DNA from: Christensenellaceae bacterium | GTDB lineage: Bacteria; Bacillota; Clostridia; Christensenellales; Borkfalkiaceae | DNA: 64,000 nucleotides | Reading direction: 5' to 3' | Assembly (NCBI GenBank): GCA_045651955.1 | Contig: JAZRTI010000020.1 | Location: 9,667 to 73,666 of the forward strand | Part shown: positions 10,418-61,992 of the stretch, one piece after another | Layout of the letters: each line of letters begins with the position of its first letter | Position numbering within the stretch: position 1 is the first letter of the stretch | Position numbers and translations under genes: made by a program | The notes under the pieces: generated by a model | The model's input: the letters and a program-made list of their open reading frames with translations, nothing else | Databases searched by the model: none | Told to the model about the DNA's origin: nothing

Positions 10418-10490
10418 GTAGGGGCTGGCGCCCACGACAGCCCGTAATGAGCATTTAAGGGGACGGGACGTCGAAGGCGCCGCCCCCTAC
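10418..10490. repeat. GC-rich imperfect palindrome (REP/MITE-like)
   Basis: The arms are gtaggggctggcgcccacgacagcccgt (10418-10445) and acgggacgtcgaaggcgccgccccctac (10463-10490). They pair at 22 of 28 positions and are strikingly GC-rich against an AT-rich context. Confidence 0.6.
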
Positions 10491-10617
10491 CAAAAACGGT
10501 GTTCAAAAACAAAAAATGCCCCAATTTTGCGTTGGGACAAATGTGAGTTTTGAGCAAGACTCAAAAGTTCAATTTACAGCAGTACGGTATAACATATCGA
10601 AAACATAGGAGAAAAGT

Positions 10618-10974: not shown

Positions 10975-10991
10975 TTTGCAAAGGAGTAAAA

Positions 10992-11855
10992 ATGAAAGTT
11001 TTTATAAGTTGGTCTGGATTATTAAGTCAAAAAATTGCCGAATTGTTAAAAAACTGGTTAGAACAATGCATCCAATCAATTGAAGCATTCTATTCTTCGG
11101 AAGACATCGAAAAAGGAGATTTGTGGAATGCCAAAGTTACAAGCGAGTTGCGAGATACAAATTTTGGTATTGTATGTTTAACGAAGGATAACATTAATGC
11201 GCCTTGGATTCATTTCGAAGCGGGGGCATTATCTAAAATGTTAGATTCAAGAGTTGCTACACTTGCAATCAATATACCTTTTTCAGATATAAAAGGTCCT
11301 CTAAGCACTTTTCAAGCAACAAAAATTGAAAAGGATGACATGTATAAGCTTTTAAAAGCAATAAACAATGCGCAAGATAAGCCATTGACGGAAGAAAAAT
11401 TAAAAAATACATTTGAAGCTTTTTGGGGTAAATTTGAAAACGATTTCATGGAGATTATTTCCCAAGAAACAGAAAAAGAAGATAAAAAGTCTACACCAAA
11501 AATCAATGTTGCGGAAACGGTAGAGGAAATATTACAATTGGTGCGTAGCCAAAATGCAATGATAAATAGTTCAACGAAAATCATTCCACATGAATATTTC
11601 GAAGATATGATGCAAAGAGCAATACATAGGAATGATACAAATTATATCTTCGACAAGTTATACGATTTCACCAAATATGTTTTGGAAAGATTTAGTGAGC
11701 AAGAACCAGAGGAAAATATAGAAGTGGAATTTTTCAAGCACCAATATTTACAGTTCGTCGAAGACCTCGTATCTGATTATCCAGTATGGAGAAGAAGATT
11801 TAGCAATTTACTTTCGGCTAAAAACAAGTTTAGGCATAAACTGACAGTTGGTTGA
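10992..11855 (+). CDS. TIR-domain protein with an uncharacterised helical C-terminal domain
   Basis: KVFISWSG...IAELLKNWL...SSEDIEKGDLW...FGIVCLTKDNINAPWIHFEAGAL matches the bacterial TIR_2-type pattern and includes a candidate catalytic Glu. AAGGAG lies upstream of ATG 10992. Confidence 0.7.
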   Translation: MKVFISWSGLLSQKIAELLKNWLEQCIQSIEAFYSSEDIEKGDLWNAKVTSELRDTNFGIVCLTKDNINAPWIHFEAGALSKMLDSRVATLAINIPFSDIKGPLSTFQATKIEKDDMYKLLKAINNAQDKPLTEEKLKNTFEAFWGKFENDFMEIISQETEKEDKKSTPKINVAETVEEILQLVRSQNAMINSSTKIIPHEYFEDMMQRAIHRNDTNYIFDKLYDFTKYVLERFSEQEPEENIEVEFFKHQYLQFVEDLVSDYPVWRRRFSNLLSAKNKFRHKLTVG

Positions 11856-11883
11856 TTTCTCAATAAAGGAGTTTAATTCTAAG

Positions 11884-11976
11884 AAATATACCTTTTGGCT
11901 TTACAACCTCCGTTTTTGACACAAAAATATACCTTTTGACCTTATGACCCACGTGGAAACCGTTGCTTGTTTAACG
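11884..11976 (+). repeat. two degenerate direct copies resembling the rlmD 3' end
   Basis: aaatataccttttg occurs at 11884-11897 and 11925-11938, 41 bp apart. The second copy continues in frame as IPFDLMTHVETVACLT, compared with rlmD PYDMFPQTKHVESVVCLT. The 10-mer cacgtggaaa is identical at 10371 and 11950. Confidence 0.55.
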
Positions 11977-12062
11977 TGTAAAAACAACAATGCATAGTGT
12001 AAATTATATTTTTTAATCAAAATATTGCTTTTTACTATTTCTAAATATGTTACCTGTCCACC

Positions 12063-12094
12063 ATTTGTCCACGCTTTTGAAAGGCGTGGACAAA
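12063..12094. terminator. stem-loop, possible terminator
   Basis: A perfect 12-bp stem atttgtccacgc/gcgtggacaaat has an 8-nt loop. The downstream T-run is weak. Confidence 0.4.
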
Positions 12095-12226
12095 TTTTAT
12101 GCTTTTTAAGCGATTTATTATGACGCGCTTTTTAGAATGTTTATTTTCATATGCAAAATGTATTGAAGTGCAAGGGGATAAGGAAAGAGTTGGAATAAAA
12201 AAGCGAAAAGAATTAAAGAAAAATTA

Positions 12227-12255
12227 TTGATTTTTTTGTCGAAAAATGTTATAAT
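12227..12255 (+). promoter_or_regulatory. candidate promoter of the acyl operon (TTGATT-17-TGtTATAAT)
   Basis: The -35 is at 12227-12232 and the extended -10 at 12247-12255. This would give a 5' UTR of about 185 nt. Confidence 0.45.
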
Positions 12256-12446
12256 CAATTGGGATAATTATAATTAACAATTCTTATGCATCTATTATGA
12301 ATAGATGTACGGAAAAAACTTGTGTTTTTTTACGTATTATAACGTGTTTTTCTATTGCTGTTTTTGCAAGAAAATTTACTAAAACATAAAAGAATTTCAA
12401 AAGGAAAAATTATACGGATATCAACCAGTGTTTGGTAGGAGAGGTT

Positions 12447-14372
12447 ATGCGGCTAACTAATATTGCGAATTGCAAAACCATTGATGAATATGTAAATCAA
12501 AAATCTCAAAAGTTGAAGTCGGGGGAACAATCCTTTTGTGCGTTGTTTGAACTGATGTTTTCAGAACAAAATAATACTTTTTGGGAAAGCAACGATGGGT
12601 ACCGAATTATTAAAACCACTTATGGCGAAGTAAAAAATACAATTTGCAAAAGGGCATATTTCTTGCAGGAGACATTATCGGGGATAGAAAAGGGATCGGT
12701 TATTGGTTTACATATGCAAAACAGTTTAAGTTGGATAGAAATATTCTGGGCTGTTTTGAAATGTGGATACCGACCTTTATTGCTAAATACCAGAATGGAT
12801 AAAAACACGTTAGCCGACGTAATAATTAGGGCGGAAGCAAAAGCGGTGATTTCCGACAGGGAACAGTTTTCCGTTCCTACGTATATGGCAGAGGAAATTG
12901 TTTGCGGCAAGCAAGAAAACAACAATACCGCTTTTGGGGAAGAGATATTGCTGATGACGTCCGGCACTTCCAACGCGGTAAAAATTTGCGTTTATGATGC
13001 ACCTAATATTATCAATCAAATTTTGAATGCCGAACAAATTGTAAAAACAAGCCGTTTAATCAAAAAGCATTATGAAGGCGAATTAAAATTACTAACCTTT
13101 TTGCCTTTCTATCATATATTTGGCTTAACTGCTATGTATATGTGGTTTGCGTTTTATGCACGAACCTTTGTGGCGTTAAAGGATATGTCCTCGCAATGTA
13201 TAGTGAATACCATTCGCAGGCATAAAGTAACGCATATTTTTGCAGTTCCGCTGTTTTGGAATACGGTTTACGAGCAAGCCATTAAAAAGGTAAAAGAACG
13301 GGGAGAAAAAACCTATCAAAAACTGAAAAAAGGATTAAAATTATCCGAGATGTTAAGCGGCATCCCTTTCTTGGCAAGGTTTTTCCGCAAAAAGGCTTTT
13401 AAGGAAGTTCGGGATAAACTGTTTGGCGAAAGCATCTGCTTTATGATAACCGGTGGCGGATGTATCGGGGAACACGTATTAAAATTCTTTAACGGGATTG
13501 GCTACCATTTATCCAACGGATACGGAATGTCCGAAATCGGCATTACTTCGGTTGAACTTTCGGAAGATAGCCGTATTTTGAATTCCGGAACGATAGGAAA
13601 ACCGATGGCATCCGTACAGTATAAAGTCAATGATGGCGGAGAGTTGTTTGTTAAGGGAAATTCCCTGTGCAAATATTATATGGAAAATGACCAAAAGTTT
13701 TTTGTGGAAGACGGTTGGTTTAGAACAAAAGATTTAGCAAGGGAAGTCAAGGGGCGCTATTATTTGATGGGAAGAGAGGACGATTTAATTGTTTCATCTT
13801 CGGGCGAAAATATCAACCCCAACTTATACGAGAACGCATTTGATTTTAAGCACGTAAAGCAAGTATGTTTGCTGGACGCACGTAAAAACGGACAACCCTA
13901 TCCCGTAATGCTGGTTTCGGTGGTAAAATATATCTCCCACGAAACGCGCGAAAAGTTGCTGCAAGAAATTAAAGAAAAACTGAAAACACTGAATTTGTTA
14001 TCCGAAATTAAGGAAATTGTTTTTGTCGGTGAAGATTTTATCAAAGGAAACGAATTCAAACTGAACAGAAAACGCCTGTCAGAAGAATTTAACCAGGGCA
14101 GGTTAAATATTTTATCTAACGTGGGGGACTGTGAAAAAGAATACGTCTTTGATAAGATTGAAAAGCAAGTAGCCCTTTGTTTTGAAAAAGTGTTAGGAAA
14201 AACGGTGGATAAAAACGCAGATTTTTTTGTTGACCTTGGCGGAAGCAGTTTGGAATATTTTACGTTAGTAACATATATCCAGGAAGAATTTGACTTGATA
14301 ATTCCGCTGGGTAATGATAAAAAATTATGTTCCATCAGTGATTTCAGTACGTTTATCAAAGGCAATATGTAA
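12447..14372 (+). CDS. adenylate-forming (acyl-AMP/CoA ligase-like) enzyme fused to a C-terminal carrier-protein domain
   Basis: The AMP-binding core motifs are LMTSGTSNAVKI (a degenerate P-loop), NGYGMSE, WFRTKDL and GREDDLIVSSSGENINP. The C-terminal ADFFVDLGGSSLEYF is a phosphopantetheine attachment motif. AGGAGAGG lies upstream of ATG 12447. Confidence 0.8.
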   Translation: MRLTNIANCKTIDEYVNQKSQKLKSGEQSFCALFELMFSEQNNTFWESNDGYRIIKTTYGEVKNTICKRAYFLQETLSGIEKGSVIGLHMQNSLSWIEIFWAVLKCGYRPLLLNTRMDKNTLADVIIRAEAKAVISDREQFSVPTYMAEEIVCGKQENNNTAFGEEILLMTSGTSNAVKICVYDAPNIINQILNAEQIVKTSRLIKKHYEGELKLLTFLPFYHIFGLTAMYMWFAFYARTFVALKDMSSQCIVNTIRRHKVTHIFAVPLFWNTVYEQAIKKVKERGEKTYQKLKKGLKLSEMLSGIPFLARFFRKKAFKEVRDKLFGESICFMITGGGCIGEHVLKFFNGIGYHLSNGYGMSEIGITSVELSEDSRILNSGTIGKPMASVQYKVNDGGELFVKGNSLCKYYMENDQKFFVEDGWFRTKDLAREVKGRYYLMGREDDLIVSSSGENINPNLYENAFDFKHVKQVCLLDARKNGQPYPVMLVSVVKYISHETREKLLQEIKEKLKTLNLLSEIKEIVFVGEDFIKGNEFKLNRKRLSEEFNQGRLNILSNVGDCEKEYVFDKIEKQVALCFEKVLGKTVDKNADFFVDLGGSSLEYFTLVTYIQEEFDLIIPLGNDKKLCSISDFSTFIKGNM

Positions 14373-15028
14373 TGATTTACTTTTTTAACTGGTTTACAAA
14401 AATAACTGCGTGGTTCGTTCAAAAATTATGTTTTAGAACGAAAGTATATTACGAGAAGAAGGAAGAGCAAGGGCGGCATATCAAAGGTCCGGCAATCATT
14501 ATTTCCAATCATACGTCCGTTTATGATTACGCAGTGTTCTTATTTGTGTTTTTCACCCGTACGTTAAGATACCAAATGGCAGAAATTCTGTTTAAGAAAG
14601 CCTTGTTACGTAACTTTTTGAAATGCATGGGCGGAATTTTTGTGGATAGAGATTCCAATGATTTCGGTTTTATGGATAAATCTCAAAAGGTGTTGGAAAA
14701 GGGTGGAGTTGTAGGAATATTCCCCGAAGGTAGGATTCCGGAACAATCAGAAGATAAACCGTTGGCGTTTAAGCCGGGCGCAATTCAACTGGCATTAACG
14801 GCAAACGTGCCCATAATTCCTGCGTATACAAACGGTTGTTACTTTCAAAAAAAACGTGCCCGTGTAATTATTGGAAAACCCATTTACCTATCCGAACTGT
14901 ATAACAGTCAGGAAGATTATAAAACCAACATGGAAAGGATTTCGCAGGAGCTACGAGAAAGAGTGGTCAATCTTGGCAATATCCTAAAAGAGAAGATAGA
15001 TTATGAAAGAGAAAAGAAAAATAAATAA
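14372..15028 (+). CDS. PlsC/LPLAT-family acyltransferase
   Basis: It has the HX4D motif NHTSVYD and an FPEGR motif. The start overlaps the upstream stop (TAATG). Confidence 0.85.
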   Translation: MIYFFNWFTKITAWFVQKLCFRTKVYYEKKEEQGRHIKGPAIIISNHTSVYDYAVFLFVFFTRTLRYQMAEILFKKALLRNFLKCMGGIFVDRDSNDFGFMDKSQKVLEKGGVVGIFPEGRIPEQSEDKPLAFKPGAIQLALTANVPIIPAYTNGCYFQKKRARVIIGKPIYLSELYNSQEDYKTNMERISQELRERVVNLGNILKEKIDYEREKKNK

Positions 15029-34675: not shown

Positions 34676-36395
34676 TTATTTAACGGGTGCCATAACTTTT
34701 TGTATTCCTTTTGCAAGGGTGGTTGCATCCCCACTTGTGTGCATTTCGCTGGTATCAACAATATCCCCACCGATTGCTCGTTGTGCTTTGGAAGATGCAC
34801 ATCTTGCCGTTTGCGTAACTGCTTCTGCTTCTTCCAAAGACCTCCCCATATCCTTAAGGGCATCCTCAATCGCAGCCTGTTGGTTAACAAACGCCACGCG
34901 AAGGCTTTGGAAACGGTGGGTGTATTTCTTCGCAGCCTTCTGCGCTCTCCGTCTTTCCGCACGTGATAGCGTGTTGTCCATCACGATGTTGGTCTTACCC
35001 GTGGGGGCGTAGGTGAGGGAAGAGCGTTCTTCCGTTGTGCCGTCAGAATACGTAACAATCATTCCGCCTTCATCTGGGAAGTCATATCTAATAGGTTTTT
35101 TGTTTAGATTTTTTTGATTGCTTCTAACATTTCCGCTTCCGGAAGTTTTTGGTCTATTAGTGCTGATAGTTTGTCTGCTCGTTTTTCGTCCATTTGTGCT
35201 GCGCAAAAAATCTTCACGTGTGTAGAATGCGCATACGGAGTTGATAAAACTTTTTCTAATAATTCCTTGCCGTTCATAAATAGCCTCCCTAATAATATCA
35301 ACGCGTGTTTCATCGTTGTAGTTTATTTTAATTATTTGGCTTACTTTGGGGTTTTGATAAGTGCCTTTTGCAAAAACAAGGATATTTTCCACGCCTTTGT
35401 TTTCGCTACTATCATCACTTACCGAAATTATCCATTCTCCATTTTCTGTTTTGGGTGGGAAAAATCTCTTTTTAGAAACTTTGCTATCAAAGTTCTTCCA
35501 AGCAGCAGAAGAAATAACGTTATTTGCTCTTACCCAACCAAAATCATTATACTGTTTTTGGGTATAATTGTCAACAAGCGAAAACCTAATATCCTTGCTT
35601 TCGGTGGGGGGATTTGCTTCTTTTTTGCTTGCTAAAGCAGCCCGTTCCTTAACTTTTTTAATTTTTTCCGAAGAATTTTCGCTTAAGGGGTTGACAGAAT
35701 CTTTTCCCTTTGCTATACTGTTATTGATGGAGATAGTGTCCGACTTTACGGACCGCTCCATCTTTTTTATTGGGGAAATATCATATAGTATTTTTTCGCC
35801 ATTTGCGGTGGTTGCAACATTAAGTGTTGCCTCCCAAATGGTGTTTTCTTTGTCCTGAATATATGTTTTCCAATATTCCCAATCATTTTTTCCGTAATTG
35901 TCAAGCCAATCGTGAGAATGAGTTGAAGCTGATTGTTCTTTTAATGAGGACGTAAGAATTAGTTCATCAACAAGAGCAATAGAATCCTGTTTGGTTTTAT
36001 TTCCAATATATTTGGTAGTTAAATCCTTATTAACAGGAACAAGCTTGCCACTCTTATTATTAAATTTTTGAGTTGCGTTTGCAAATTTTCGGTGGATTCT
36101 ACCGTGGGGTGGTTTGATTAAAGTTCTTAATTTGGGTAATAACATCATTTAACTGTTCTTCGCTAATATGTTTAGCAGACTTTCCTAAACCTTGCCCATC
36201 GGCACTATCAAAGGCTACAAGGTACCCTTCTGCATCCTTCTTAATGCCTACCACAAGCCCGTTTTCGGCACGGTAAACCGCCCCTTCTCCGTCCTTTAAG
36301 GAAATGCTTGGGGCAGGGGGGGTAACTGTTGTTTCTTCTGCTCAACAATTTCGGTTTGTTCTTGGCTTTGAGCGGCAAGTTGTGTTTGGAAAATT
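34676..36395 (-). pseudogene. 5'-truncated, frameshifted fragment of a phage/ICE polyvalent-protein-like gene
   Basis: The 490-aa ORF (34676..36148) contains ...WEATLNVATTANGEKILYDISPIKK..., which is reminiscent of polyvalent-protein LPD/PBECR regions. Coding-like sequence continues upstream in two other frames (...PSISLKDGEGAVYRAENGLVVGIKKDAEGYLVAFDSADGQGLGKSAKHISEEQLNDV..., then ...QTQLAAQSQEQTEIVEQKKQQ...). The frame changes occur near 36150 and at the G7 run 36316-36322. Confidence 0.5.
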
Positions 36396-42496: not shown

Positions 42497-43891
42497 TTAA
42501 GCAATTCCTGCAAGAAGTTGCATTGCGATAAAGCAATAGATCAGTAGGGATAGAACGTCAACAATGGTTGTAATAAAGGGGTTTGCAACAACTGCCGGGT
42601 CCAAACGGCAAACTTTTGCAAGTAGGGGAAGGATGCATCCAACCAATTTTGCCAGAATGATTGTTGCCAACATGGTTAAACAGATAACAAAAGCAATCAG
42701 CATGCCGTTGGGTACGGCGTGTAATTTATCAATTAAAAGCAGTTTTCCAAAGCAGGCAATACTGATAGTTACGCCAAGTAGAAGGGAAACGCGTAATTCC
42801 TTCCATATAACCTTAAAAATATCCCGAAACTCTACTTCTCCAAGCGCAATGCTGCGGATAATGGTTACCGAGGCCTGGCTGCCGGCGTTTCCGCCCGTAC
42901 CCATAATCATTGGTATACAGGCTGTAAGGGTGATGGAAACAGCAAGCGTGGCTTCGTAACTGGAGATAATCATTCCGGTAAACGTTGCGGAAATCATTAA
43001 AATTAGTAGCCATGGAACGCGATTTCTAAACAGGCTCCATACGGACGTTTTTAGGTAAGTTGCATCTGTGGGGGAGGTACCTGCTAGTTTCAGGAAGTCT
43101 TCTTCGTTTTCGTCTTGAATAACCTCAATTGCGTCATCGTAGGTGATGATGCCAACAAGGCGTTCTTCTTGGTCTAATACCGGCAATGCCATAAAGCCGT
43201 ATTTTCCAAGCGTTTGTGCTGCCTCTTCTTTATCCGTTAAGGTAGTTACCGAAACGACATTTGTTTCCATCAAATCCGAAATTAAGGTGTTTTGGTCTGC
43301 TAAAAGCAGATTTTTTACCGTGCAAAGTCCCAAAAGTTTGCTGCCGCTATCTACTACGTAGCAGTTGTATACCGTTTCTTTATCCACGCCAACCTTTCGG
43401 ATGCGGGCAAATGCTTCGGCAACGGTCATTGTTTCCCGAAGGCTGACGTATTCAATGGTCATCACGCTGCCGGCGCTGTCTTCGGGATATTTTAGAATTT
43501 TGTTAATCATAATCCTCATTTCGGGGGAGGATTGGCGCATAATTCTGCGAACGACGTTTGCGGGCATTTCTTCAATAATGTCTACCGTATCGTCAAGAAA
43601 GATGTTTTGCAACACTTCTTCCAGTTCTTTATCGCTAAATGCCTGGATTAAAAGTTCCTGCGCATCGCTATCCATTTCAACGAATACGTCTGCTGCCGTT
43701 TCTTTGGAAAGTAAGCGGAATGCGATTAAAAAATCTTCCTTATTTACGTCGTGTTGAATTTCAAGTAGTAATTCTGCGATGTCGGGCGGTAGCATTTCGC
43801 CCAACATTTGTTTTAGTGTTTGATATTTTTTTTCAACGATAAGTTTGGTAACTTCTTCTACCAAATTTACGTTTTCTTCCATATTTTCCAT
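42497..43891 (-). CDS. mgtE: magnesium transporter MgtE
   Basis: It has the MgtE N-domain, a CBS pair and a TM domain with GTGGNAGSQ. Confidence 0.95.
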   Translation of the reverse strand: MENMEENVNLVEEVTKLIVEKKYQTLKQMLGEMLPPDIAELLLEIQHDVNKEDFLIAFRLLSKETAADVFVEMDSDAQELLIQAFSDKELEEVLQNIFLDDTVDIIEEMPANVVRRIMRQSSPEMRIMINKILKYPEDSAGSVMTIEYVSLRETMTVAEAFARIRKVGVDKETVYNCYVVDSGSKLLGLCTVKNLLLADQNTLISDLMETNVVSVTTLTDKEEAAQTLGKYGFMALPVLDQEERLVGIITYDDAIEVIQDENEEDFLKLAGTSPTDATYLKTSVWSLFRNRVPWLLILMISATFTGMIISSYEATLAVSITLTACIPMIMGTGGNAGSQASVTIIRSIALGEVEFRDIFKVIWKELRVSLLLGVTISIACFGKLLLIDKLHAVPNGMLIAFVICLTMLATIILAKLVGCILPLLAKVCRLDPAVVANPFITTIVDVLSLLIYCFIAMQLLAGIA

Positions 43892-44094: not shown

Positions 44095-44258
44095 AAATAC
44101 ACACGTATAACACCATCCAAGCTTTAGCTTCGCCGGGCGGTGCAGTTGCGTTAAACCGGGCCTTGAATCGACCGAGTCTGTTAACCGCAATAACCGTGTC
44201 TCCACAATTATTCGGCAGCAACCCATATCCCTGCGGTAGCCTTACCTACTGGAATTAT
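44095..44258 (-). promoter_or_regulatory. M-box (ykoK leader) Mg2+ riboswitch
   Basis: The minus strand contains AGGTAAGGCTACC, TTGCTGCCG, GTTAACAG and AGCTAAAGCTT in the order of the conserved M-box segments (Rfam RF00380), as remembered from the B. subtilis mgtE leader. It lies upstream of mgtE. Confidence 0.8.
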
Positions 44259-44274
44259 TTTCTCTATGTTACAT

Positions 44275-54727: not shown

Positions 54728-54943
54728 ATGATTGGCGAACCTTGTGAATTGTATGATAGAGAGTGCTGCGAATGTGGGGAATGCGATCTTTGTGATTTAG
54801 ACCCAAGTAAAACTTGCGATAGTTGCGGAAAATGCTTAAACCTGAATGAATATTCGGAAATTTTGATTGACGGTATCTTTGAAAGTGAAGAAGCATGGCA
54901 GGCATTTGTATCCTCTAAAACAAATTCTGAAAAAAATAAATAA
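54728..54943 (+). CDS. 71-aa acidic Cys-rich protein (9 Cys in residues 6-36)
   Basis: The sequence reads CELYDRECCECGECDLCDLDPSKTCDSCGKC. AGGAGGAG lies upstream of the start and terminator 54950-54985 follows. Confidence 0.65.
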   Translation: MIGEPCELYDRECCECGECDLCDLDPSKTCDSCGKCLNLNEYSEILIDGIFESEEAWQAFVSSKTNSEKNK

Positions 54944-54990: not shown

Positions 54991-56103
54991 TTATATTAAA
55001 CCATCCGGGTTTTCGTTTGTAAGGGGAGTAAGGTTGGGGATATCCGCGTTTTTCGGCTTTTGCGTTCCCAAGGAAACGGCATTTGCCGCAGCCCTGCGAA
55101 TATCGTCCGAAATTGCCGCGTAATGGCGTTTTGTAGTGTTTACGTCGCTATGACCTAATACGTCTGCCACCACGTAAATATCGCCAGTTTGACGATATAA
55201 GTTCGTACCAAAAGTGCTTCGCAGCTTGTGTGGAGTTATTTTTTTTAAGGGAGTAACGATTTTGCTGTATTTTTTAACCAAATTTTCCACTGCGCGCACA
55301 GTAATACGGCGATCTTGCTCGGAAACAAACAGTGCGCGCTCGCTTTTAGGCAGGTTCGGGCGTTTTTCTCTATGGGCCATCCATTCTAATAAAGGCTGTT
55401 TAATTTCATCCGAAAAATATAAAATCACGCGATTTCCACCTTTTCTTGTAACGCGAAAACCGTTTACTGCAAAGTCTATATCTTCCACGTTTAGCCCTAC
55501 AAGTTCGCTGATACGGATTCCCGTACCCAAAAACAGGGTGATTATCGCCACATCTCTTACTTTGGTACGCGCGTGCGCTGCTTTTTGCCGTGCAGTTAAC
55601 CCTTCTCCGTTTTCTACAACGGATAATAGGGCGGAAAGTTCCGCATCTTCCAATCGGATAATTTCTTTTTCGTGCAATTTTGGCATAGAAACTTTGGCGG
55701 CAACGTTCGCATTGATGCGATCCCTGCGAAATAAGTATTTATAAAAGGAACGAATGCTTGCAATCTTTCTTGCCTTTGCATATTCTTTGCAATACACCCG
55801 TTTGCCGTTGATTTCATACGAAGATAAATAGCCGGAGAAACGTTCTAAATCATCCGCACACAAATTTTCCAAATCATTTAACGAAATTTCGTTCGGTTTT
55901 TTATTGCGAAACAGTTTTTCGGTTAAAAAACGGAAAAAAATACGTAAATCGTATGCATAATTTTTTCTGGTCAGTGGGGAAGTTACATTTTCAATTCCGA
56001 TAAAATAATCCGCAGCAAAACTGGGCAGTTCTTTTAAGATTTCTTCTACCGTTTTTCTGCAATTTTCATCTCTCTTTTCATAGTAATCGTTTTGCATACT
56101 CAT
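54991..56103 (-). CDS. tyrosine recombinase (XerC/XerD-like)
   Basis: It has an N-terminal SAM-like domain, plus HKLRSTFGT and GHSDVNTTKRHY, which give the catalytic His-x-x-Arg and Tyr. Confidence 0.85.
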   Translation of the reverse strand: MSMQNDYYEKRDENCRKTVEEILKELPSFAADYFIGIENVTSPLTRKNYAYDLRIFFRFLTEKLFRNKKPNEISLNDLENLCADDLERFSGYLSSYEINGKRVYCKEYAKARKIASIRSFYKYLFRRDRINANVAAKVSMPKLHEKEIIRLEDAELSALLSVVENGEGLTARQKAAHARTKVRDVAIITLFLGTGIRISELVGLNVEDIDFAVNGFRVTRKGGNRVILYFSDEIKQPLLEWMAHREKRPNLPKSERALFVSEQDRRITVRAVENLVKKYSKIVTPLKKITPHKLRSTFGTNLYRQTGDIYVVADVLGHSDVNTTKRHYAAISDDIRRAAANAVSLGTQKPKNADIPNLTPLTNENPDGLI

Positions 56104-56151: not shown

Positions 56152-56180
56152 TTGCAAAATATACAAATTTGCGGTATAAT
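56152..56180 (+). promoter_or_regulatory. candidate comEC promoter (TTGCAA-17-TATAAT)
   Basis: The -35 is at 56152-56157 and the -10 at 56175-56180, inside the ORF-track N-terminal extension. Confidence 0.45.
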
Positions 56181-56226
56181 AATAAAAATACTTACTCTAA
56201 AATATTTACCGTTAGAAAAGTACGCT

Positions 56227-57771
56227 ATGAAATTGCCAAAGATAAAACAAAATTCCAATTTCCCGTTGATTCATTTGCGCCCCATGTTATTTGCGGCGCT
56301 TGGTTTCGTTTTGGGAATTATCTGCTTATTTCAATACGTAATTTACAGGAAAACCTATGTGTTTTTCATTTTTTGCGTCTTCCTTTTTATTTTATTAGGC
56401 TTTGCAATTTATCAAACGATTCGCAAATCAGAGAAAATCCTGTTATTTTGCACGGTTATTGCAAGTATTTTTGCTATTTGCGGCGGTTTTTCTGCTTATG
56501 CGCAAATTTCTGCATACGAGCATAAAGAAATCAATCCCGGTTATTATACCGTGTATGGAACGGTATCTGATATTTCGGAATTAGAAGACGGACATAGCCT
56601 ACTGCTAACCGACTTGGTATTCAAAACAGAAAATACCACCATAACTTCAGACCATAAAATGAACCTTATTGTGTTTAATAAGGGGAGTGATGTATATCCG
56701 GGAAAACGGATTCGCACTTATGTTCTAGTAAATTTGCAAGAAAAAGGTGAATATTACACCTATCAAATGGCAAACGGCATCAAATTTGTTGCTTTTACGG
56801 GCGGAAGTTCGGTTGTTTCGGTGGGAAATACAAAAAATTTCTTTGAAAAGGTGCGGTTGAAAGGGGAAAGCATATTAAGTAAGTATTTAACCGGGGATGC
56901 CTTATATGTGGCAACGGGAATGCTGTTTGGAAATACGGAAGGCATGCAAGAAAACACCTTAACACAGTTCCGCGAATTGGGAATTGCACATATTTTCGCC
57001 GTATCCGGCTTACATATCGGCTTCCTTTGCGTAATTATAACAAAACTTTTACGCCGTACGGAGGCAAGAAATCCGTTAAGGTTCCTTTTGCCCTCCATTG
57101 CGGTTTTCTTTTATGCAGGAGTATGCGGATTTACCCCTTCCGCCTTGCGTGCCGCCATTGTGTGTGCAACGGTGTTGTTTTTTGGATTTATCGGTGCGCC
57201 GCATGATGCGCTGAGCGGTGTTTTGTTTAGTGCAATTGTTGTACTTGCATTGAATCCCGCGGATGTAACTTCTTACGGATTTATCCTTTCATACGCGTGC
57301 GTGCTTTCCATTATTATAATTTCGCCGTTATTTCGTAAACATTTACGCTTTTTACCAAACAAACTGGGGGAGGGGCTTTCCATTTCCTTGGGAATACAAG
57401 TGGGTGTTTTTCCCGTACAGATGGCACTGTTCGGGTATGCTGCGCCTATTTCTGTATTGCTGAATTTACTGTTTATTCCGATAATTACACCCATTTATAT
57501 CATAGTTTTAGCAATTTTGCTTTGCGCAGCAATTATACCTGCTTTCGGCTTGCTTTTTACAATTATTGAAAAAGTTTTTGTTTTCCTACTGTACATTTTA
57601 GATAAATTGCCACGGGGGATTACAGTTAAAAATTTAGAAGTGAATGGGGGAATGCCTATATATTATCTGGGTGTTTTGCTTGCATCCTATCACGTAAACT
57701 TGCGAAAGGGTGTAAAAATTGCAGCATCTGCACTTTGTTTTGCAGCCTTTTTACTTACGGTTTTCTTATAA
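56227..57771 (+). CDS. comEC: ComEC/Rec2-family competence channel protein (no metallo-beta-lactamase domain)
   Basis: It is polytopic with the competence-domain motif GIAHIFAVSGLHIGF. ATG 56227 lies downstream of the predicted promoter. Confidence 0.8.
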   Translation: MKLPKIKQNSNFPLIHLRPMLFAALGFVLGIICLFQYVIYRKTYVFFIFCVFLFILLGFAIYQTIRKSEKILLFCTVIASIFAICGGFSAYAQISAYEHKEINPGYYTVYGTVSDISELEDGHSLLLTDLVFKTENTTITSDHKMNLIVFNKGSDVYPGKRIRTYVLVNLQEKGEYYTYQMANGIKFVAFTGGSSVVSVGNTKNFFEKVRLKGESILSKYLTGDALYVATGMLFGNTEGMQENTLTQFRELGIAHIFAVSGLHIGFLCVIITKLLRRTEARNPLRFLLPSIAVFFYAGVCGFTPSALRAAIVCATVLFFGFIGAPHDALSGVLFSAIVVLALNPADVTSYGFILSYACVLSIIIISPLFRKHLRFLPNKLGEGLSISLGIQVGVFPVQMALFGYAAPISVLLNLLFIPIITPIYIIVLAILLCAAIIPAFGLLFTIIEKVFVFLLYILDKLPRGITVKNLEVNGGMPIYYLGVLLASYHVNLRKGVKIAASALCFAAFLLTVFL

Positions 57772-58210
57772 CCAAACAGGGAAAACAAAAAAATATTCCC
57801 AAAATTATGGCAATAGCAATAGGTGATAAGGCGTGTTTTTAATATGCCAAACAAAAAATAACCGAACAGGGAATAGGAAAAACTTAATTTTGCGTGGCGT
57901 ATATCTATTCGCAAAAGTCTTGTTTTGCGAATAGAAAGGGGTAAAAAAGAGAATAATAGGCAATATACGGCTTTTATGCTTGAATTATACCATCTGCCAC
58001 TGAATAACCGGCATTCCTTTATATAATTACCGGTATGATTCATTGTACGTTGCAGGCTGTTTCTACGTAAGGATTTTTTCCGATTGAATTACGCGCTAGC
58101 TATTGTTTCATTTCAGCACGTTGCTTTGTATGATACAGCCGTTTTTATTGCAGAAATTTTTAGTTTAACGTGGTTTTTCTTATTTTGGCAATACCGTAAC
58201 TTGTTCCTAT

Positions 58211-58401
58211 TGTGGATAATTTGTTATTTTGTCTTTTTTTCTATAAAAAACGTTGATTTTTCGGTAATTTATGGCTTTTTAAGGAAATTTTTGCCTTATT
58301 TTTATATAGAAATACGGTATTTTTTGTTGATTTTGTGGATAAATACCGCATTTTGTGGATAATTTTATGTGTTTTTGTGGATAAGTACGTAATTATCCAC
58401 A
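58211..58401. promoter_or_regulatory. cluster of five perfect DnaA boxes
   Basis: TGTGGATAA occurs at 58211-58219, 58334-58342, 58354-58362 and 58376-58384. TTATCCACA occurs at 58393-58401. A very AT-rich stretch of about 115 bp lies between the first and second box. Confidence 0.85.
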
Positions 58402-58451
58402 TTTTGCGGCAAAATTGCTATTTTTGCCCGTTTTTATTCCTGAAAAACAGA

Positions 58452-58479
58452 AAAACAGCCAATTTTTCGGCTGTTTTTT
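58452..58479. terminator. bidirectional terminator
   Basis: The stem aaaacagcc/ggctgtttt is flanked by A-runs and T-runs. Confidence 0.7.
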
Positions 58480-58590
58480 CATGTTATGTCTGTCATAGTT
58501 GTTGATAAATTGTTGAAAACTCAGTTATAGCAGGTGTGCACGTGTTCTAAATAAGATCTCGCAAGAAAACTTCCCTTTTTTATGCGTTGA

Positions 58591-59247
58591 TTAACGATAT
58601 AAGGTATCCTTAATTCTATACAAATCTAATGCTTTTCTACGTTTTTTGTAGTCAGGAATAAAGGTTTCTACTTCCTTCCAAAATTCTTTGCTATGATCAA
58701 AATGCTTTAAGTGTGCAAGTTCATGCACAACAACGTATTCCACCAATGGATAATCAACCATAATGATACGCCAGGAAAAAGACAAATCCCCTTCGTTGGT
58801 ACATGCACCGTTGCGGCTTTTATAATCCTTAATTTCCACGGATTTAGGCGTAACGCCCATTTTTTCCGCGTATTCAGCAACAATTTCGGGAATTAATTTT
58901 ACCGCTTCGCTTTTTAAGACGCGTTTTGCATTTTTTGCCACGTCCTGACCAAATTTCACGGCAAACCAACGTTCGGTCAACTTTGTTGCATCATCCACAC
59001 GCACAACGGACATTTTTTTGCCTAAAAATAAAATCTTTTTGCATTTAATAACGTCATCAAAATAATGCTTTTCCTGCTCGTTACGAGAAATCTGCTTGTT
59101 AATCCAATCTTCGTGTTTGGCAAGAAAAATTAAAATTCTTTCTTCCGAAAGGCCGTTGGGCGCTTTTACCATAACCCCTTTTTTAGGATGATAAGAAACA
59201 CTCAACGTTTTTCTATCCGAGCGTTCTAATGTATATTCGTAATCCAT
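58591..59247 (-). CDS. YgjP-like (DUF45/M48-type) zinc metallopeptidase
   Basis: It has HELAHLKHFDHSKEFW. GGGAG lies upstream of ATG 59247, and ATG 59262 is an alternative start. Confidence 0.8.
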   Translation of the reverse strand: MDYEYTLERSDRKTLSVSYHPKKGVMVKAPNGLSEERILIFLAKHEDWINKQISRNEQEKHYFDDVIKCKKILFLGKKMSVVRVDDATKLTERWFAVKFGQDVAKNAKRVLKSEAVKLIPEIVAEYAEKMGVTPKSVEIKDYKSRNGACTNEGDLSFSWRIIMVDYPLVEYVVVHELAHLKHFDHSKEFWKEVETFIPDYKKRRKALDLYRIKDTLYR

Positions 59248-59396
59248 TCTGCGCACTCCCATTTTTTTCTTATCAATATTGTACTATAATTTTTATAAAT
59301 TGTCTATCTTATTGCTGTTTTTTTCCTTAGAATTTATATTTTTTAATAAAAAATATACTTTTTTATGTTTTGTTTGTCTGACATACTAATTTGCAT

Positions 59397-59460: not shown

Positions 59461-61992
59461 ATGGATTCTAAAGATACAAACTTTGGGGATTTTCCTTACG
59501 GGGACGAAGAAGCAACCCAATACGAAGAACCCACAAACTCCGTAGAAGAAACGGAAGATGACGACGATTTCTTTCCCACTTGGCAAAGAAAAAGTTTTTT
59601 GGAACAAACCCTGAAAACCGAAGTTGAGGAGGAGGATATTTTTACCTCCCCCACTTTTTCGTACCTTTCGGACGAGTCGGACGAGGATGATTCGGATAAA
59701 ACCGAGGATGTGGAATCTGTCCCTGCGATTGACGAATTTGATCAAGAAGAAGATTCTACAATCTTTGCTACAAATGAAGAAATTGATAATGAAATTGCTG
59801 ACGAGGATGTATCCGATTTCACCAAATCCGGCGAAAATTCGTATGAAAATGAAGAAACTGAACCCGTTTCCGCATTTTTAGAGGAGGAAAAGGAGGATTC
59901 TGAACAGTTGCACCCCTCAATTTTGGATAACGATTTTGATGCTCCGGCAATGGATGATTGGTCGGAAAACGTTACAATACAAGCGGATGAAGAAAAAACA
60001 CCCGAATATGACGCCGAGGAAAACATACAAACCCATGAAAATAACGCGGTGTACGATCAAACAATGCAATCCGACACGCAGGAAAGCAACACCCTTTCCA
60101 TGGATAATAATTTAGAAGCAGATACGAAATATACGCCTATTGCAGCAACTGAAACAGAAGAACAGGAAAACAATTTGGATGCTGAAAATGTGGAAAATTT
60201 GGTTGGAAATGCTGAGGAATTGACAGAAAACACTTCTTTTTATGACTCGCAACATTCTGAGGATGAACCAACCGGCGCTGAAACGCCTTTTGAAACATTC
60301 TCCCAGATCAATGACGTTGACGGAGAATCTGCACAACAAGCAGTCGCACAGCCCTCTGTAACCATAAGCAGTGATTTAATTCGTGGGCACATTAACACCA
60401 TTATTTTGCGCACGCTGAGCGAAGGCGACCGTTACGGTTTGGAAATCATCCAAGAAATTGAACGGAAAACGCGTGGACAATACACCATAAAACAACCCAC
60501 ATTATACAGTTCTTTGAAGCGACTGGAAAACAGTGGCTTTATCACTTCTTACTGGGGATCGGGCGAAACAAACGGCGGCAGAAGGCGTTATTATGCCTTG
60601 ACCGAAAACGGTAGAACGGTAACCGATCAAAACCGTGCAGAATGGGAATATTCCAGAACCATTATTGACAATCTGATTTCTGAACGCGAATACGACCTAT
60701 CTTCTACCCCGCCAACCGCTGTTGATTTTTCTTTGCTGAAAAACGCAACTACTCGCGTTTTTGCTTCGGATAAAAATAACACCGAAAAAGATTTGCAAGA
60801 TTTAGAAGAAAAGCGTGAGGAACTTTTAAGAAAAATGGAAGAAGAGCAAGATGCTCTTGATCGCTTAAAGTTAGAACGCGACGATTTGACCGCAGAAATT
60901 ACACGTGCACGCGAAGAAACGTTTGTTGTGCAGCAAGAACAAGCAATGCAAATGGAAGAATTTGCACAAAAGCAAGCGGAAATTGAGGAGTTAAAGCGCG
61001 AACAGGAAGAATTATCCGTTGATATCTGTAAAAAACAGGAGTATGCAAACACTCTTTCCTCCACCACAGAAGCAGAACGCGCTGAACGGGATTACAAAAA
61101 TATTTTGGGCAAAATTTTCCCGCAGGAAGAACCTTATCAAACGGAAACATCTACACCCAATAGCGGTTACACACGTGAAGAAATAGCCAAAACGGAGCAA
61201 CCACAAACGGAAAACACGCAGCCGTACGAAAAATATCCTGATTTTTGGAATTTTGAAGAGGAACCGGCAAAAAACATTCCCGCTCAAACAGACACGGAAA
61301 AATACGAATTACCTACGTTTTCTCATACCCCGGAAACCGAAAGTTACGAGCGCAACGATAATTTCTCTGAATTTATCCGCAGACATTCGCAAACAACCGA
61401 AGAAAGAAATCGTCAAGATGCAATTTCTGATTATGCAGCAACGCCGAAACGCCGCCAGGGAAAAATTGATTTTTCGGATATCTTTGCTTATGCCGACCGC
61501 AACCAAATGCGCGTTCGTTCGTATGTAGGAAATAAATCTGCAACGAACCAGACGCAGAAAAACAGTTTGCTGTTCGTAAATAAAATGCGCGCTCTTAGTT
61601 TGTGTTTAATTTATTTAATTATGATGGCGGAACTGGTGCTTTGCTACGTTTTAACTGCGGATCTGTTAGGGTTAAAGAAAGAATTTTTCTATATCGCTTT
61701 GCTTTTAACGCTGATTCCCGTTGCTGCAATCATGTTACTTTTCTTTGCATCTCAAAAACTGATTGTTCCAAGAAATAATTTGAAAGACGCCCTATTAACT
61801 TCGGTTATCATAATTTTTAACTTCTTCTTAATGCTGATTGTTTTAGCGCTTATTTTAGAAGTTCAACTTTCCAACACAAGGAATTTGCTTTTGTATTTTG
61901 CTTATCCCTTGCTTGCTATTTTGAATTTACCCATCTATATCCTAATTAAAAACGCTTTAATTAAAACCGGAAAATTTAATACGGCATCTTAA
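59461..61992 (+). CDS. 843-aa protein with an acidic low-complexity N-terminus, a PadR-type wHTH, a coiled coil and about 4 C-terminal TM segments
   Basis: The PadR core is LIRGHINTIILRTLSEGDRYGLEIIQEIE...QPTLYSSLKRLENSGFITSYW...RRRYYALTENG. The N-terminal 300 aa or so are D/E-rich. The C-terminus has hydrophobic helices. Confidence 0.75.
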   Translation: MDSKDTNFGDFPYGDEEATQYEEPTNSVEETEDDDDFFPTWQRKSFLEQTLKTEVEEEDIFTSPTFSYLSDESDEDDSDKTEDVESVPAIDEFDQEEDSTIFATNEEIDNEIADEDVSDFTKSGENSYENEETEPVSAFLEEEKEDSEQLHPSILDNDFDAPAMDDWSENVTIQADEEKTPEYDAEENIQTHENNAVYDQTMQSDTQESNTLSMDNNLEADTKYTPIAATETEEQENNLDAENVENLVGNAEELTENTSFYDSQHSEDEPTGAETPFETFSQINDVDGESAQQAVAQPSVTISSDLIRGHINTIILRTLSEGDRYGLEIIQEIERKTRGQYTIKQPTLYSSLKRLENSGFITSYWGSGETNGGRRRYYALTENGRTVTDQNRAEWEYSRTIIDNLISEREYDLSSTPPTAVDFSLLKNATTRVFASDKNNTEKDLQDLEEKREELLRKMEEEQDALDRLKLERDDLTAEITRAREETFVVQQEQAMQMEEFAQKQAEIEELKREQEELSVDICKKQEYANTLSSTTEAERAERDYKNILGKIFPQEEPYQTETSTPNSGYTREEIAKTEQPQTENTQPYEKYPDFWNFEEEPAKNIPAQTDTEKYELPTFSHTPETESYERNDNFSEFIRRHSQTTEERNRQDAISDYAATPKRRQGKIDFSDIFAYADRNQMRVRSYVGNKSATNQTQKNSLLFVNKMRALSLCLIYLIMMAELVLCYVLTADLLGLKKEFFYIALLLTLIPVAAIMLLFFASQKLIVPRNNLKDALLTSVIIIFNFFLMLIVLALILEVQLSNTRNLLLYFAYPLLAILNLPIYILIKNALIKTGKFNTAS

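What the first reader, a model, noticed from the sequence alone, without database searches (positions are those of the whole stretch)
57772..58590. Five perfect DnaA boxes in an 820-bp convergent, gene-free, AT-rich region far from any dnaA
Seen: The exact 9-mer TTATCCACA or its complement occurs at 58211, 58334, 58354, 58376 and 58393. Four copies share one orientation and the last is inverted, with 20-22 bp spacing among the last four. A very AT-rich stretch of about 115 bp separates box 1 from boxes 2-5. For a uniform-composition 64-kb window I estimate about 0.5 occurrences of a given 9-mer on both strands, so five in 191 bp is non-random. The flanking genes, comEC (+) and a YgjP-like peptidase (-), converge on the region, so the boxes are not in an obvious promoter. 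A perfect 12-bp hairpin lies at 57905-57934. Established: DnaA-box clusters outside oriC exist, such as the B. subtilis DBCs and E. coli datA. They titrate or regulate DnaA. Origins combine box clusters with an AT-rich unwinding element. Inference: The candidates are a DnaA-titration locus, regulation of an unannotated small RNA or gene, or an origin-like element.
Basis: partly seen in the sequence, partly recalled or inferred. Interest (0 to 1): 0.65.

Follow-up and report, generated by a model that had tools for sequence, protein, structure and literature searches.

The report
DnaA-box cluster at the replication terminus
Five perfect binding sites for the replication initiator DnaA are real and strongly conserved, but they sit where chromosome replication ends, next to a probable chromosome-dimer resolution (dif-like) site, so they most likely act as a DnaA sink or regulatory site and not as a replication origin.

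Summary
TTATCCACA occurs at 58211, 58334, 58354, 58376 (all minus strand) and 58393 (plus strand). The whole window has 7 copies against 0.71 expected.

The array is under strong purifying selection. Two other species-level genomes (L001, L087) keep the boxes, their orientation and their spacing (17-18, 22, 20 and 123-135 bp). The rest of the spacer is as diverged as shuffled sequence, and 4-fold codon sites are saturated at 38-43% identity.

The locus is not origin-like. GC skew and gene orientation converge on this gap, and the cumulative G-C maximum of the window lies at 58538. No conserved DnaA-trio module and no dnaA are present.

It matches the consensus TATKCGYAAAA-N6-TTTTRCGMATA, which occurs once beside an XerS-like recombinase gene in 60 of 80 related Clostridia loci. 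In 42 of 51 loci with enough flank it sits at a terminus-type skew switch, and in none at the opposite type. It is therefore most likely a dif-like site.

Best reading: a non-origin DnaA-box cluster, like the B. subtilis DBCs and loosely like E. coli datA, gained in one genus and placed at the terminus. Described natural clusters lie elsewhere. DnaA binding and any function are untested.

The parts
58211..58219 (-). DnaA box 1 (TTATCCACA), 123 bp upstream of box 2
   Evidence: Exact match. Present in L001 and L087 at 123 and 135 bp from box 2.
58220..58333 (.). 114-bp A+T-rich spacer (79% A+T) between box 1 and box 2. Its length is conserved but its sequence is not.
   Evidence: Lengths are 114, 114 and 126 bp in the three genomes. 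Pairwise identity is 0.47-0.61 against 0.50-0.53 for shuffles.
58334..58342 (-). DnaA box 2
   Evidence: Exact match. Invariant in L001 and L087. The 11-bp spacer to box 3 is 83-100% conserved.
58354..58362 (-). DnaA box 3, 20 bp from box 2
58376..58384 (-). DnaA box 4, 22 bp from box 3
58393..58401 (+). DnaA box 5, inverted, 17 bp from box 4 (8-bp gap). The TTAT ends of boxes 4 and 5 face each other.
   Evidence: L001 has it perfect at 18 bp. L087 has TTATCCATA at 18 bp. The following TTTTGC is conserved.
58450..58479 (.). Bidirectional intrinsic terminator (AAAAACAGCC...GGCTGTTTTT) that ends the YgjP-like gene transcript and bounds the box array
   Evidence: Terminator scan on both strands. 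Stem sequence conserved in L001 and L087.
57904..57935 (.). dif-like site: perfect palindrome TCTATTCGCAAAA-GTCTTG-TTTTGCGAATAGA, 275 bp from box 1
   Evidence: 100% identical in L001 and L087. Unique in the window, scoring 39 bits against -1.9 for the next best. The consensus site occurs once in 60 of the 80 distant loci, next to the recombinase gene, and at a terminus-type skew switch in 42 of 51 loci with none opposite.
57936..57946 (.). Conserved flank AAGGGGTAAAA beside the dif-like site
   Evidence: Invariant in the three-way alignment. Role unknown.
54991..56103 (-). XerS-like tyrosine recombinase (370 aa), the presumed partner of the dif-like site
   Evidence: Pfam Phage_integrase + SAM_1. 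Best NCBIfam model is XerS at 209 bits, below the 267 cut-off. Best PDB sequence matches are XerD, XerA and an XerC-like recombinase, with XerH lower. About 60% identity across thousands of Clostridia proteins.
56152..57771 (+). comEC, the left flank, converging on the gap
   Evidence: Pfam Competence, 1.7e-50.
58591..59262 (-). YgjP-like M48 metallopeptidase, the right flank, converging on the gap
   Evidence: Pfam YgjP-like, 6.7e-48.

Best explanation
The five boxes form a selected, high-affinity binding array for the initiator DnaA. The array is not an origin. It is a non-origin DnaA-box cluster of the kind known from B. subtilis (DBCs) and, more loosely, E. coli datA.

It lies in the intergenic gap where the two replication forks converge. 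It is 275-480 bp from the probable dif-like site of an XerS-like single-recombinase system.

Proposed mechanism (inferred, not shown). DnaA domain IV occupies the five consensus 9-mers. Boxes 2-4 repeat every 20-22 bp, about two helical turns, which puts the protomers on one face of the DNA and favours cooperative occupancy. The inverted box 5 and the distant box 1 complete the complex. The array then holds a fixed amount of DnaA per chromosome.

Because it is among the last DNA to be replicated, this sink would double only at termination. That would lower free DnaA at the end of each round and help delay the next initiation.

Shown: the boxes, their conservation, the terminus position and the absence of origin features. 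Inferred: DnaA occupancy and the effect on initiation.
For: The boxes are far above chance.

Three genomes whose 4-fold degenerate sites are saturated (38-43% identity) have gap sequence that aligns no better than shuffles. Even so, they retain 45/45 box positions (window vs L001) and 44/45 (window vs L087), the same orientations, and spacing within +/-1 bp for boxes 2-5. Under neutrality q^45 is about 1e-18 per comparison.

The conservation footprint over 15 box instances is exactly the 9-mer. Eight positions are 100% conserved and one is 93%, while the flanks are 33-80%.

The Ishikawa score A = 16/19.7 = 0.81 exceeds the 0.3 that separated in-vivo DnaA-bound regions in B. subtilis.

B. subtilis DBC[gcp-ydiF] likewise lies between convergent genes. 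A DBC moved to terC still partly suppresses over-initiation (PMC3245932).

Terminus position: skew is positive at 1-54 kb and negative beyond 61 kb. The cumulative G-C maximum is at 58538. Gene orientation converges in the window and in L001 and L087. The homologous site lies at the same polarity switch in 42 of 51 related loci and at the opposite one in none.
Against: No binding or functional data exist for this organism.

In B. subtilis the suppressive effect of a DBC scales with gene dosage and is weakest at terC. One five-box array at the lowest-dosage position is therefore a weak sink unless cellular DnaA is low.

The cluster is confined to one genus-level clade. The nearest outgroups, L006 and L002, and 80 more distant loci lack it. 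It is therefore not a general requirement.

Natural DBCs described so far lie mostly near oriC, so the analogy is incomplete.
Confidence: 0.55

Rival explanations
1. Terminus-specific role. The DnaA-bound array works with the terminus machinery and not as a general sink. It could act as a polar protein roadblock that fixes where forks meet. Alternatively, it could be a factor that influences Xer/FtsK action or expression at the adjacent dif-like site.
For: The array coincides with the cumulative skew maximum (58538) and lies 275-480 bp from the dif-like site. Four of five boxes share one orientation.

In several distant lineages, one to three DnaA boxes lie within about 150 bp of the dif-like site or in the recombinase promoter region: L045, L057, L040, L069 and L038. 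Under uniform placement P is about 1e-4.
Against: After controlling for intergenic sequence, the enrichment in distant lineages is only suggestive: 2 observed against 0.31 expected, P about 0.04.

The distance from box 1 to the dif-like site varies (275, 252 and 220 bp) and the intervening sequence is scrambled. This argues against a fixed joint complex.

Most relatives manage without boxes. No DnaA-based fork barrier is known.
Confidence: 0.13
2. Transcriptional operator. DnaA bound at the boxes represses or activates a promoter for an unannotated small RNA or peptide in the gap, or blocks read-through between the convergent genes.
For: DnaA is a transcription factor at sda, ywlC and yydA in B. 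subtilis.

Direct boxes 20-22 bp apart give sigma-70-like TGGATA-N16-GATAAT pairs. A weak minus-strand promoter-like site (TTGCCA-18-TAAACT, 58191-58162) lies just downstream of box 1.
Against: Outside the boxes, the dif-like island and the terminator, nothing in the gap is conserved.

The translated matches between the three gaps fall mainly on the conserved DNA islands, in several frames and on both strands, and none forms a long match shared by all three genomes.

No Rfam family reaches its threshold. The promoter-like hits are no more numerous than in shuffles, 9 against 7.7. A terminator already separates the convergent genes.
Confidence: 0.12
3. Origin or secondary origin: box cluster plus AT-rich unwinding element.
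For: Five perfect boxes with a 114-bp stretch of 79% A+T between box 1 and box 2. Phased arrays of perfect boxes about 21 bp apart are common in metagenomes, but their contexts were not determined.
Against: Skew and gene-strand polarity are those of a terminus here and at the homologous locus in 42 of 51 relatives, with none opposite. Most of those relatives have no boxes there.

No conserved DnaA-trio array is next to any box. NTN x3 runs occur in 54% of shuffles and are not shared between genomes.

The AT-rich stretch is not conserved in sequence and is only slightly richer than the gap. No dnaA, dnaN or rep gene is present.
Confidence: 0.02
4. DARS-like DnaA-reactivating site: the inverted box 4/5 pair promotes nucleotide exchange.
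For: There is an inverted pair of perfect boxes with conserved spacing, plus tandem boxes. The DARS core is also three boxes with one inverted (PMC6868365).
Against: E. coli DARS1 reads TTATCCACt-5 bp-TGTGGATAA-3 bp-TGTGTATTA, with the CACA ends facing. Here it is TGTGGATAA-8/9 bp-TTATCCACA, with the TTAT ends facing. That is the opposite inversion type with different spacings.

I know of no DARS described outside Proteobacteria (own knowledge).
Confidence: 0.04
5. Relic or alternative reader. Either the boxes are a leftover of a small element that integrated at dif (IMEX) carrying a DnaA-dependent plasmid origin, or they are accessory half-sites for the Xer-like recombinase and not DnaA sites.
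For: The cluster is a gain of about 400 bp immediately beside the dif-like site, relative to the outgroup L006. Box plus flank, ATTTATCCACAAAA, matches the dif arm ATCTATTCGCAAAA at 11 of 14 positions.
Against: No second full or conserved half dif-like site bounds the segment. There is no rep or mobilisation gene.

Purifying selection over saturated divergence argues against an inert relic. Conservation stops exactly at the 9-mer, and the AAAA flank needed in a dif arm is absent at boxes 1 and 5 and at box 4 in L001 and L087. The boxes score only about 5 bits on the arm matrix against 18-21 bits for true arms.
Confidence: 0.05

Closest known systems
Bacillus subtilis non-origin DnaA-box clusters (DBCs), especially DBC[gcp-ydiF]
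   Same: Both are intergenic clusters of several consensus boxes outside oriC in a Firmicute. The affinity-density score is above the in-vivo binding threshold (A = 0.81 here; gcp-ydiF = 0.94). Both lie at the 3' ends of convergent genes and are conserved among relatives without an obvious regulated gene.
   Different: Natural Bacillus DBCs lie mostly near oriC, whereas this one is at the terminus beside a dif-like site. All five boxes here are the top-affinity TTATCCACA. The cluster is restricted to one genus-level clade. Binding and any effect on initiation are untested.
Escherichia coli datA
   Same: Both are non-coding clusters of about five high-affinity boxes that do not fire as origins and that lower initiation potential (summarised).
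   Different: As I recall it, datA works through IHF-dependent stimulation of DnaA-ATP hydrolysis and lies near oriC. No IHF site or homologous sequence was identified here, and the position is the opposite pole of the chromosome.
Escherichia coli DARS1/DARS2
   Same: A small cluster that includes an inverted pair of boxes.
   Different: The inversion type is opposite and the spacings differ: 8-9 bp against 5 bp, and 11-13 bp against 3 bp. No regulatory IHF or Fis region is present.
oriC basal unwinding system (DnaA boxes + DnaA-trios + AT-rich DUE)
   Same: Perfect DnaA boxes and a nearby A+T-rich stretch.
   Different: There is no conserved trio array within 16 bp of any box. Skew and gene orientation have terminus polarity. 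No dnaA or dnaN is present.
XerS/difSL and XerH/difH single-recombinase dimer-resolution modules (for the neighbouring palindrome)
   Same: The recombinase is about 350-370 aa and its best model is XerS. The site lies next to the recombinase gene in most relatives, has ...GAAAA/CAAAA inner arms, occurs once per locus and sits at the skew switch.
   Different: The arms are perfectly palindromic 11-13 bp around a 6-bp centre, whereas difSL has an 11-bp centre and unequal arms. The protein scores below the XerS equivalog cut-off (209 against 267 bits). In this clade comEC separates the gene from the site. Whether a second Xer exists in the genome is unknown.

Membership tests
Non-origin DnaA-box cluster (B. 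subtilis DBC type) | Several closely spaced boxes matching TTATNCACA with affinity-density A > 0.3 (Ishikawa 2007) | tested here: met
   Boxes 2-5 are all TTATCCACA. A = 16/19.7 = 0.81, or 1.5 if gaps are used.
Non-origin DnaA-box cluster (B. subtilis DBC type) | Located outside oriC, not next to dnaA/dnaN | tested here: met
   No DnaA motifs in the window. The flanks are comEC and a YgjP-like gene. Polarity is that of a terminus.
Non-origin DnaA-box cluster (B. subtilis DBC type) | Conserved among related genomes | tested here: met
   Present in the three genomes whose YgjP-like proteins are 92-97% identical, despite saturated neutral sites. Absent from the outgroups.
Non-origin DnaA-box cluster (B. 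subtilis DBC type) | oriC-proximal chromosomal position (typical of natural DBCs) | tested here: not met
   The locus is at the skew maximum, where genes converge.
Non-origin DnaA-box cluster (B. subtilis DBC type) | Stable DnaA occupancy in vivo and a negative effect on initiation | not testable with these tools
   Needs ChIP or EMSA and genetics.
Chromosomal origin (oriC with basal unwinding system) | DnaA box followed within 16 bp by at least 3 DnaA-trios (top strand CTA-like), conserved | tested here: not met
   Only T-run matches at the chance level (54% of shuffles), not shared between the three genomes at any box.
Chromosomal origin (oriC with basal unwinding system) | GC-skew minimum, with genes diverging from the site | tested here: not met
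   The polarity is the opposite, a skew maximum, in the window and in 42 of 51 homologous loci with none reversed.
Chromosomal origin (oriC with basal unwinding system) | Adjacent dnaA/dnaN (typical of Firmicutes) | tested here: not met
DARS (DnaA-reactivating sequence) | Core of three boxes with I/II inverted (CACA ends facing), 5 bp apart, and box III 3 bp from II | tested here: not met
   E. coli DARS1 was read directly. The window has the opposite inversion type and spacings of 8 and 13 bp.
datA (DDAH site) | IHF-binding site between essential boxes, and stimulation of DnaA-ATP hydrolysis | not tested
   No IHF consensus scan was run. The biochemistry is not testable here.
Single-recombinase Xer/dif module (XerS/XerH type), for the palindrome 57904-57935 | Inverted-repeat arms around a short central region, unique in the sequence | tested here: met
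   Arranged 13-6-13 and perfect. There is a single strong matrix hit in the window and one per locus in 60 of the 80 distant loci.
Single-recombinase Xer/dif module (XerS/XerH type), for the palindrome 57904-57935 | Genetically linked to a Xer-family recombinase of about 355 aa | tested here: met
   The site lies typically 50-900 bp upstream of the gene in most relatives, and 1.8 kb away here with comEC in between. The protein's best model is XerS.
Single-recombinase Xer/dif module (XerS/XerH type), for the palindrome 57904-57935 | Located at the replication terminus (skew shift point) | tested here: met
   42 of 51 loci have positive skew on the left and negative on the right, with none reversed. 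In the window the skew maximum is 600 bp away.
Single-recombinase Xer/dif module (XerS/XerH type), for the palindrome 57904-57935 | Protein passes the XerS equivalog threshold | tested here: not met
   209 bits against a cut-off of 267. It is a relative, not a strict XerS.
Single-recombinase Xer/dif module (XerS/XerH type), for the palindrome 57904-57935 | Recombination at the site, FtsK dependence, and absence of a second Xer | not testable with these tools
   Needs a complete genome and experiments.

The most novel reading that the evidence does not exclude
The array is a terminus-coupled DnaA device. A high-affinity DnaA platform placed exactly where the forks meet would either signal completion of replication to the initiation machinery, because the sink doubles only at termination, or act physically with the termination and dimer-resolution apparatus as a fork barrier or a partner of the adjacent XerS-like/dif system. 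Either would be a link between DnaA and the terminus that I have not seen described in any bacterium.
Probability: 0.15. Interest if true: 0.75.

Novelty: new variant of a known kind. Interest (0 to 1): 0.45.

Why it matters
Non-origin DnaA-box clusters are known regulators of initiation, and their chromosomal position matters. The natural examples I found (Bacillus DBCs; E. coli datA and DARS) lie near the origin or elsewhere on the replichores, and I found no report of one at a terminus.

A strongly selected array of five top-affinity boxes at the point of fork convergence, next to a dif-like site, suggests that some slow-growing gut Clostridia may tie DnaA availability to the end of replication and not to its start. 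That idea can be tested by moving or deleting the array.

The work also corrects a tempting misreading. A box cluster with an AT-rich stretch is not enough to call an origin.

As a by-product, it reveals a widespread recombinase-plus-palindrome module that probably marks the terminus in Christensenellales-like Clostridia. I found no description of it in the searchable literature. It could serve as a terminus marker for fragmented metagenome-assembled genomes.

Tried and rejected
- Origin hypothesis: rejected on skew and gene polarity, the absence of conserved trios and the absence of dnaA.
- Hidden gene or sRNA: six-frame ORFs from the three gaps were compared all against all. The matches fall mainly on the conserved DNA islands, in several frames, and none is a long match shared by all three genomes. 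Rfam gave nothing in the gap at gathering threshold and only sub-threshold hits at E<=1. Pfam found nothing for the 117-aa ORF that crosses the palindrome.
- DARS-like core: rejected after reading E. coli DARS1 directly.
- IMEX or plasmid relic: a position matrix built from 68 sites found no second dif-like site or conserved half-site.
- Boxes as recombinase accessory arms: rejected because conservation stops at the 9-mer.
- General DnaA-box/dif association in the order: the raw signal (P about 1e-4) shrank to P about 0.04 after an intergenic control. I treat it as suggestive only.
- Metagenome scan for the phased three-box motif: it returned many unrelated arrays and none with the dif-like site, so the phasing is generic and the scan added no family members.
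- Exact-protein look-ups for the window's own proteins failed. The source contig could not be extended, and its oriC could not be examined.
- The L088 contig ends before the gap, so it is uninformative.

Full report
OBSERVATION. The window contains 7 exact copies against 0.71 +/- 0.76 in dinucleotide-preserving shuffles, and none of 100 shuffles reached 7. Five of them lie within 191 bp. Start-to-start spacing is 123, 20, 22 and 17 bp. A sixth, one-mismatch box (TTATCAACA) lies at 58500. The flanks are comEC (56152-57771, +) and a YgjP-like M48 peptidase (58591-59262, -), so the gap is convergent. The stretch between box 1 and box 2 is 114 bp and 79% A+T, against 68% for the whole gap. The "12-bp hairpin" is a perfect 13-bp inverted repeat with a 6-bp centre, at 57904-57935.

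IS IT FUNCTIONAL? No exact copy of the window's proteins is on record. Homologues of the YgjP-like protein and of the neighbouring recombinase led to syntenic contigs. Two of them, L001 (GCA_015069615.1) and L087 (GCA_045639045.1), carry the same array. L001 has five perfect boxes spaced 18, 22, 20 and 123 bp. L087 has four perfect boxes plus TTATCCATA, spaced 18, 22, 20 and 135 bp.

These genomes are deeply diverged. Four-fold degenerate sites of the three flanking genes are 38-43% identical, which is saturation. Every segment of the gap outside the boxes aligns no better than shuffled sequence: 0.44-0.62 against 0.43-0.53 for the segments of about 50 bp or longer. Against that background, 45/45 and 44/45 box positions are retained (q^45 is about 1e-18 per comparison). 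The conservation footprint over 15 box instances is exactly the 9-mer. The three-way alignment shows only four conserved islands: the palindrome with an AAGGGGTAAAA flank, box 1, boxes 2-5, and a bidirectional terminator at 58450-58479.

The nearest outgroups keep the terminator and the palindrome but have no boxes. These are L006 (YgjP-like protein 67% identical) and L002-L005 (63%). None of 80 more distant loci has a cluster. The array is therefore a gain in one genus-level clade that has since been held by strong purifying selection.

WHERE IS IT ON THE CHROMOSOME? GC skew is +0.09 to +0.20 across most of 1-54 kb, about 0 at 54-61 kb and -0.14 beyond 61 kb. Most long ORFs left of the gap are on the plus strand. 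The genes to the right are almost all on the minus strand of the window, both here and, for a further 10 kb, in L001 and L087. The cumulative G-C maximum of the whole window falls at 58538, inside this gap. This polarity does not change under reverse-complementing. With the usual G-rich leading strand and co-oriented genes of Firmicutes, it marks the replication terminus and not the origin.

THE PALINDROME. The gene at 54991-56103 (-) encodes a 370-aa tyrosine recombinase. Its family is very large and well conserved, with about 60% identity over thousands of Clostridia proteins. Its best NCBIfam model is XerS over the full length, at 209 bits against a cut-off of 267. Its best matches to solved structures are XerD, XerA and an XerC-like recombinase, with XerH lower.

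I fetched 80 loci from Christensenellales-like MAGs with an alignment of this family. A site with consensus TATKCGYAAAA-N6-TTTTRCGMATA occurs exactly once in 60 of those 80 loci, and in 66 of all 87 loci scanned when the window and its close relatives are included. It usually lies 50-900 bp upstream of the recombinase gene. The arms covary to keep the palindrome (TATTCG/CGAATA, TATGCG/CGCATA, ACTTCG/CGAAGT), and the central 6 bp vary.

Of 51 loci with more than 4 kb on both sides, 42 have positive skew on the left and negative on the right, and none shows the reverse. In 37 loci with more than 6 kb on both sides, the local skew maximum is a median of 2.5 kb from the site. Gene linkage, size and arm sequence match the hallmarks of the single-recombinase XerS/difSL and XerH/difH systems (PMC5357621). 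The site is unique in the window, at 39 bits against -1.9 for the next best. I conclude that it is most likely the dif-like site of this lineage. This independently places the DnaA-box array at the terminus. I found no description of such a system for these Clostridia in the searchable literature.

WHAT THE ARRAY IS NOT.
- Not an origin. The polarity is wrong (see above). No dnaA motifs occur in the window. Using the published definition of the basal unwinding system (a box, a spacer of at most 16 bp, then at least 3 trios; PMC8287927), I found only T-run matches. These occur in 54% of shuffles and are not shared between the three genomes.
- Not a DARS core. E. coli DARS1 reads TTATCCACt-5-TGTGGATAA-3-TGTGTATTA (PMC6868365). 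The window has the opposite inversion type, TGTGGATAA-8-TTATCCACA, and different spacings.
- Not a hidden gene or known RNA.
- Not an obvious IMEX relic, because no second dif-like site or conserved half-site is present.
- Not recombinase accessory arms, although box plus flank matches the arm at 11 of 14 positions, because conservation stops at the 9-mer.

WHAT IT MOST LIKELY IS. By the criterion that separated in-vivo DnaA-bound regions in B. subtilis (A > 0.3; PMC2533591), boxes 2-5 score A = 0.81. One of the B. subtilis clusters, DBC[gcp-ydiF], likewise lies between convergent genes, is conserved and has no known regulated gene. Deleting the six B. subtilis DBCs causes early initiation. 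A single DBC re-inserted at terC still suppresses this partly, and the effect scales with dosage (PMC3245932).

I therefore read the locus as a DBC-like DnaA-binding array. The direct boxes about 21 bp apart put DnaA on one face of the helix, a geometry that is common in DnaA-box arrays generally. Its unusual feature is its position. Bacillus DBCs were reported as generally near oriC, and I found no report of a terminus-proximal one. At the terminus the sink would double only when replication ends, which is a plausible way to lower free DnaA at the end of a round in organisms without overlapping rounds. DnaA occupancy and this effect are inferred, not shown.

A terminus-specific role, as a fork barrier or in interplay with the dif-like/Xer system, remains possible. 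One to three boxes lie within about 150 bp of the dif-like site in five distant lineages. After controlling for intergenic sequence this is only suggestive, with P about 0.04.

VERDICT. It is a new variant (terminus-located, beside a dif-like site) of a known kind (non-origin DnaA-box cluster). So far it is seen in three metagenome-derived genomes of one clade. Interest is moderate. A replication specialist would find the position surprising and testable, but function is unproven and the organisms are uncultured.

Noticed in passing
window 54991-56103 (-) and 57904-57935; loci L007-L086: An XerS-like recombinase (about 351-370 aa) and a unique palindromic site (TATKCGYAAAA-N6-TTTTRCGMATA) form a module. 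The site occurs in 60 of 80 Christensenellales-like loci, with covarying arms, and sits at a terminus-type GC-skew switch (42 of 51 loci, none opposite). It looks like a single-recombinase dif system, and I found no description of it for Clostridia in the searchable literature.
   Followed up: yes
L045 ~9835-9898, L057 ~630, L040 ~1458, L069 ~5942-6010, L038 ~7597: In distant lineages, one to three DnaA boxes lie within about 150 bp of the dif-like site, mostly in the recombinase promoter region (for example the tandem TTATCCACA-ATATCCACA in L045). Raw P is about 1e-4, but only about 0.04 after an intergenic control.
   Followed up: partly
window 58331-58364 vs 57903-57916: DnaA box plus flank (ATTTATCCACAAAA) matches the dif-like arm (ATCTATTCGCAAAA) at 11 of 14 positions. 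It is one mismatch from an arm variant seen in L060 (TATTCACAAAA). This could be coincidence or a hint about how the boxes arose.
   Followed up: partly
window 57936-57946; 58343-58353; 58402-58407: Three short conserved stretches have no explanation: AAGGGGTAAAA beside the dif-like site, the 11-bp spacer between boxes 2 and 3 (ATACCGCATTT, or CATACCCATTT in the relatives), and TTTTGC after box 5.
   Followed up: no
window 58220-58333: The distance from box 1 to box 2 is 123, 123 and 135 bp in the three genomes although the sequence is scrambled. The 12-bp difference is about one helical turn, which hints at a phase constraint such as DNA looping.
   Followed up: no
window 59461-61992 (+): An 843-aa protein has a single PadR-type winged-helix domain in its middle (residues about 308-407) and no other recognised domain. 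It is conserved in the same position beside the terminus gap in L001, L087 and the L002 lineage, at 679-816 aa.
   Followed up: no
window 54728-54943 (+): A 71-aa ORF is divergent from lexA, and a small ORF of 69-71 aa was called at the same position between lexA and the recombinase gene in L001, L087 and L088. Pfam finds nothing. Its position recalls SOS-induced division inhibitors such as B. subtilis YneA, which is my own recollection and untested.
   Followed up: partly
window 44105-44260 (-): An M-box (Mg2+) riboswitch, at 94.7 bits, lies upstream of an MgtE transporter gene (42497-43891, -).
   Followed up: partly
window 34676-36148 (-): A 490-aa minus-strand ORF has no Pfam match. It lies in a lower-GC, strongly negative AT-skew stretch (about 34-38 kb) among otherwise plus-strand genes.
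   Followed up: no
window 10000-15000: A low-GC segment (33-38% against about 42% elsewhere) could be horizontally acquired. It was not examined.
   Followed up: no
L002 3406-5450: In the 63% outgroup, the gap between the YgjP-like gene and the next gene is 2 kb with no called gene and no DnaA boxes. It holds the dif-like site at about 4668. An HTH gene and a small gene are inserted before comEC.
   Followed up: no
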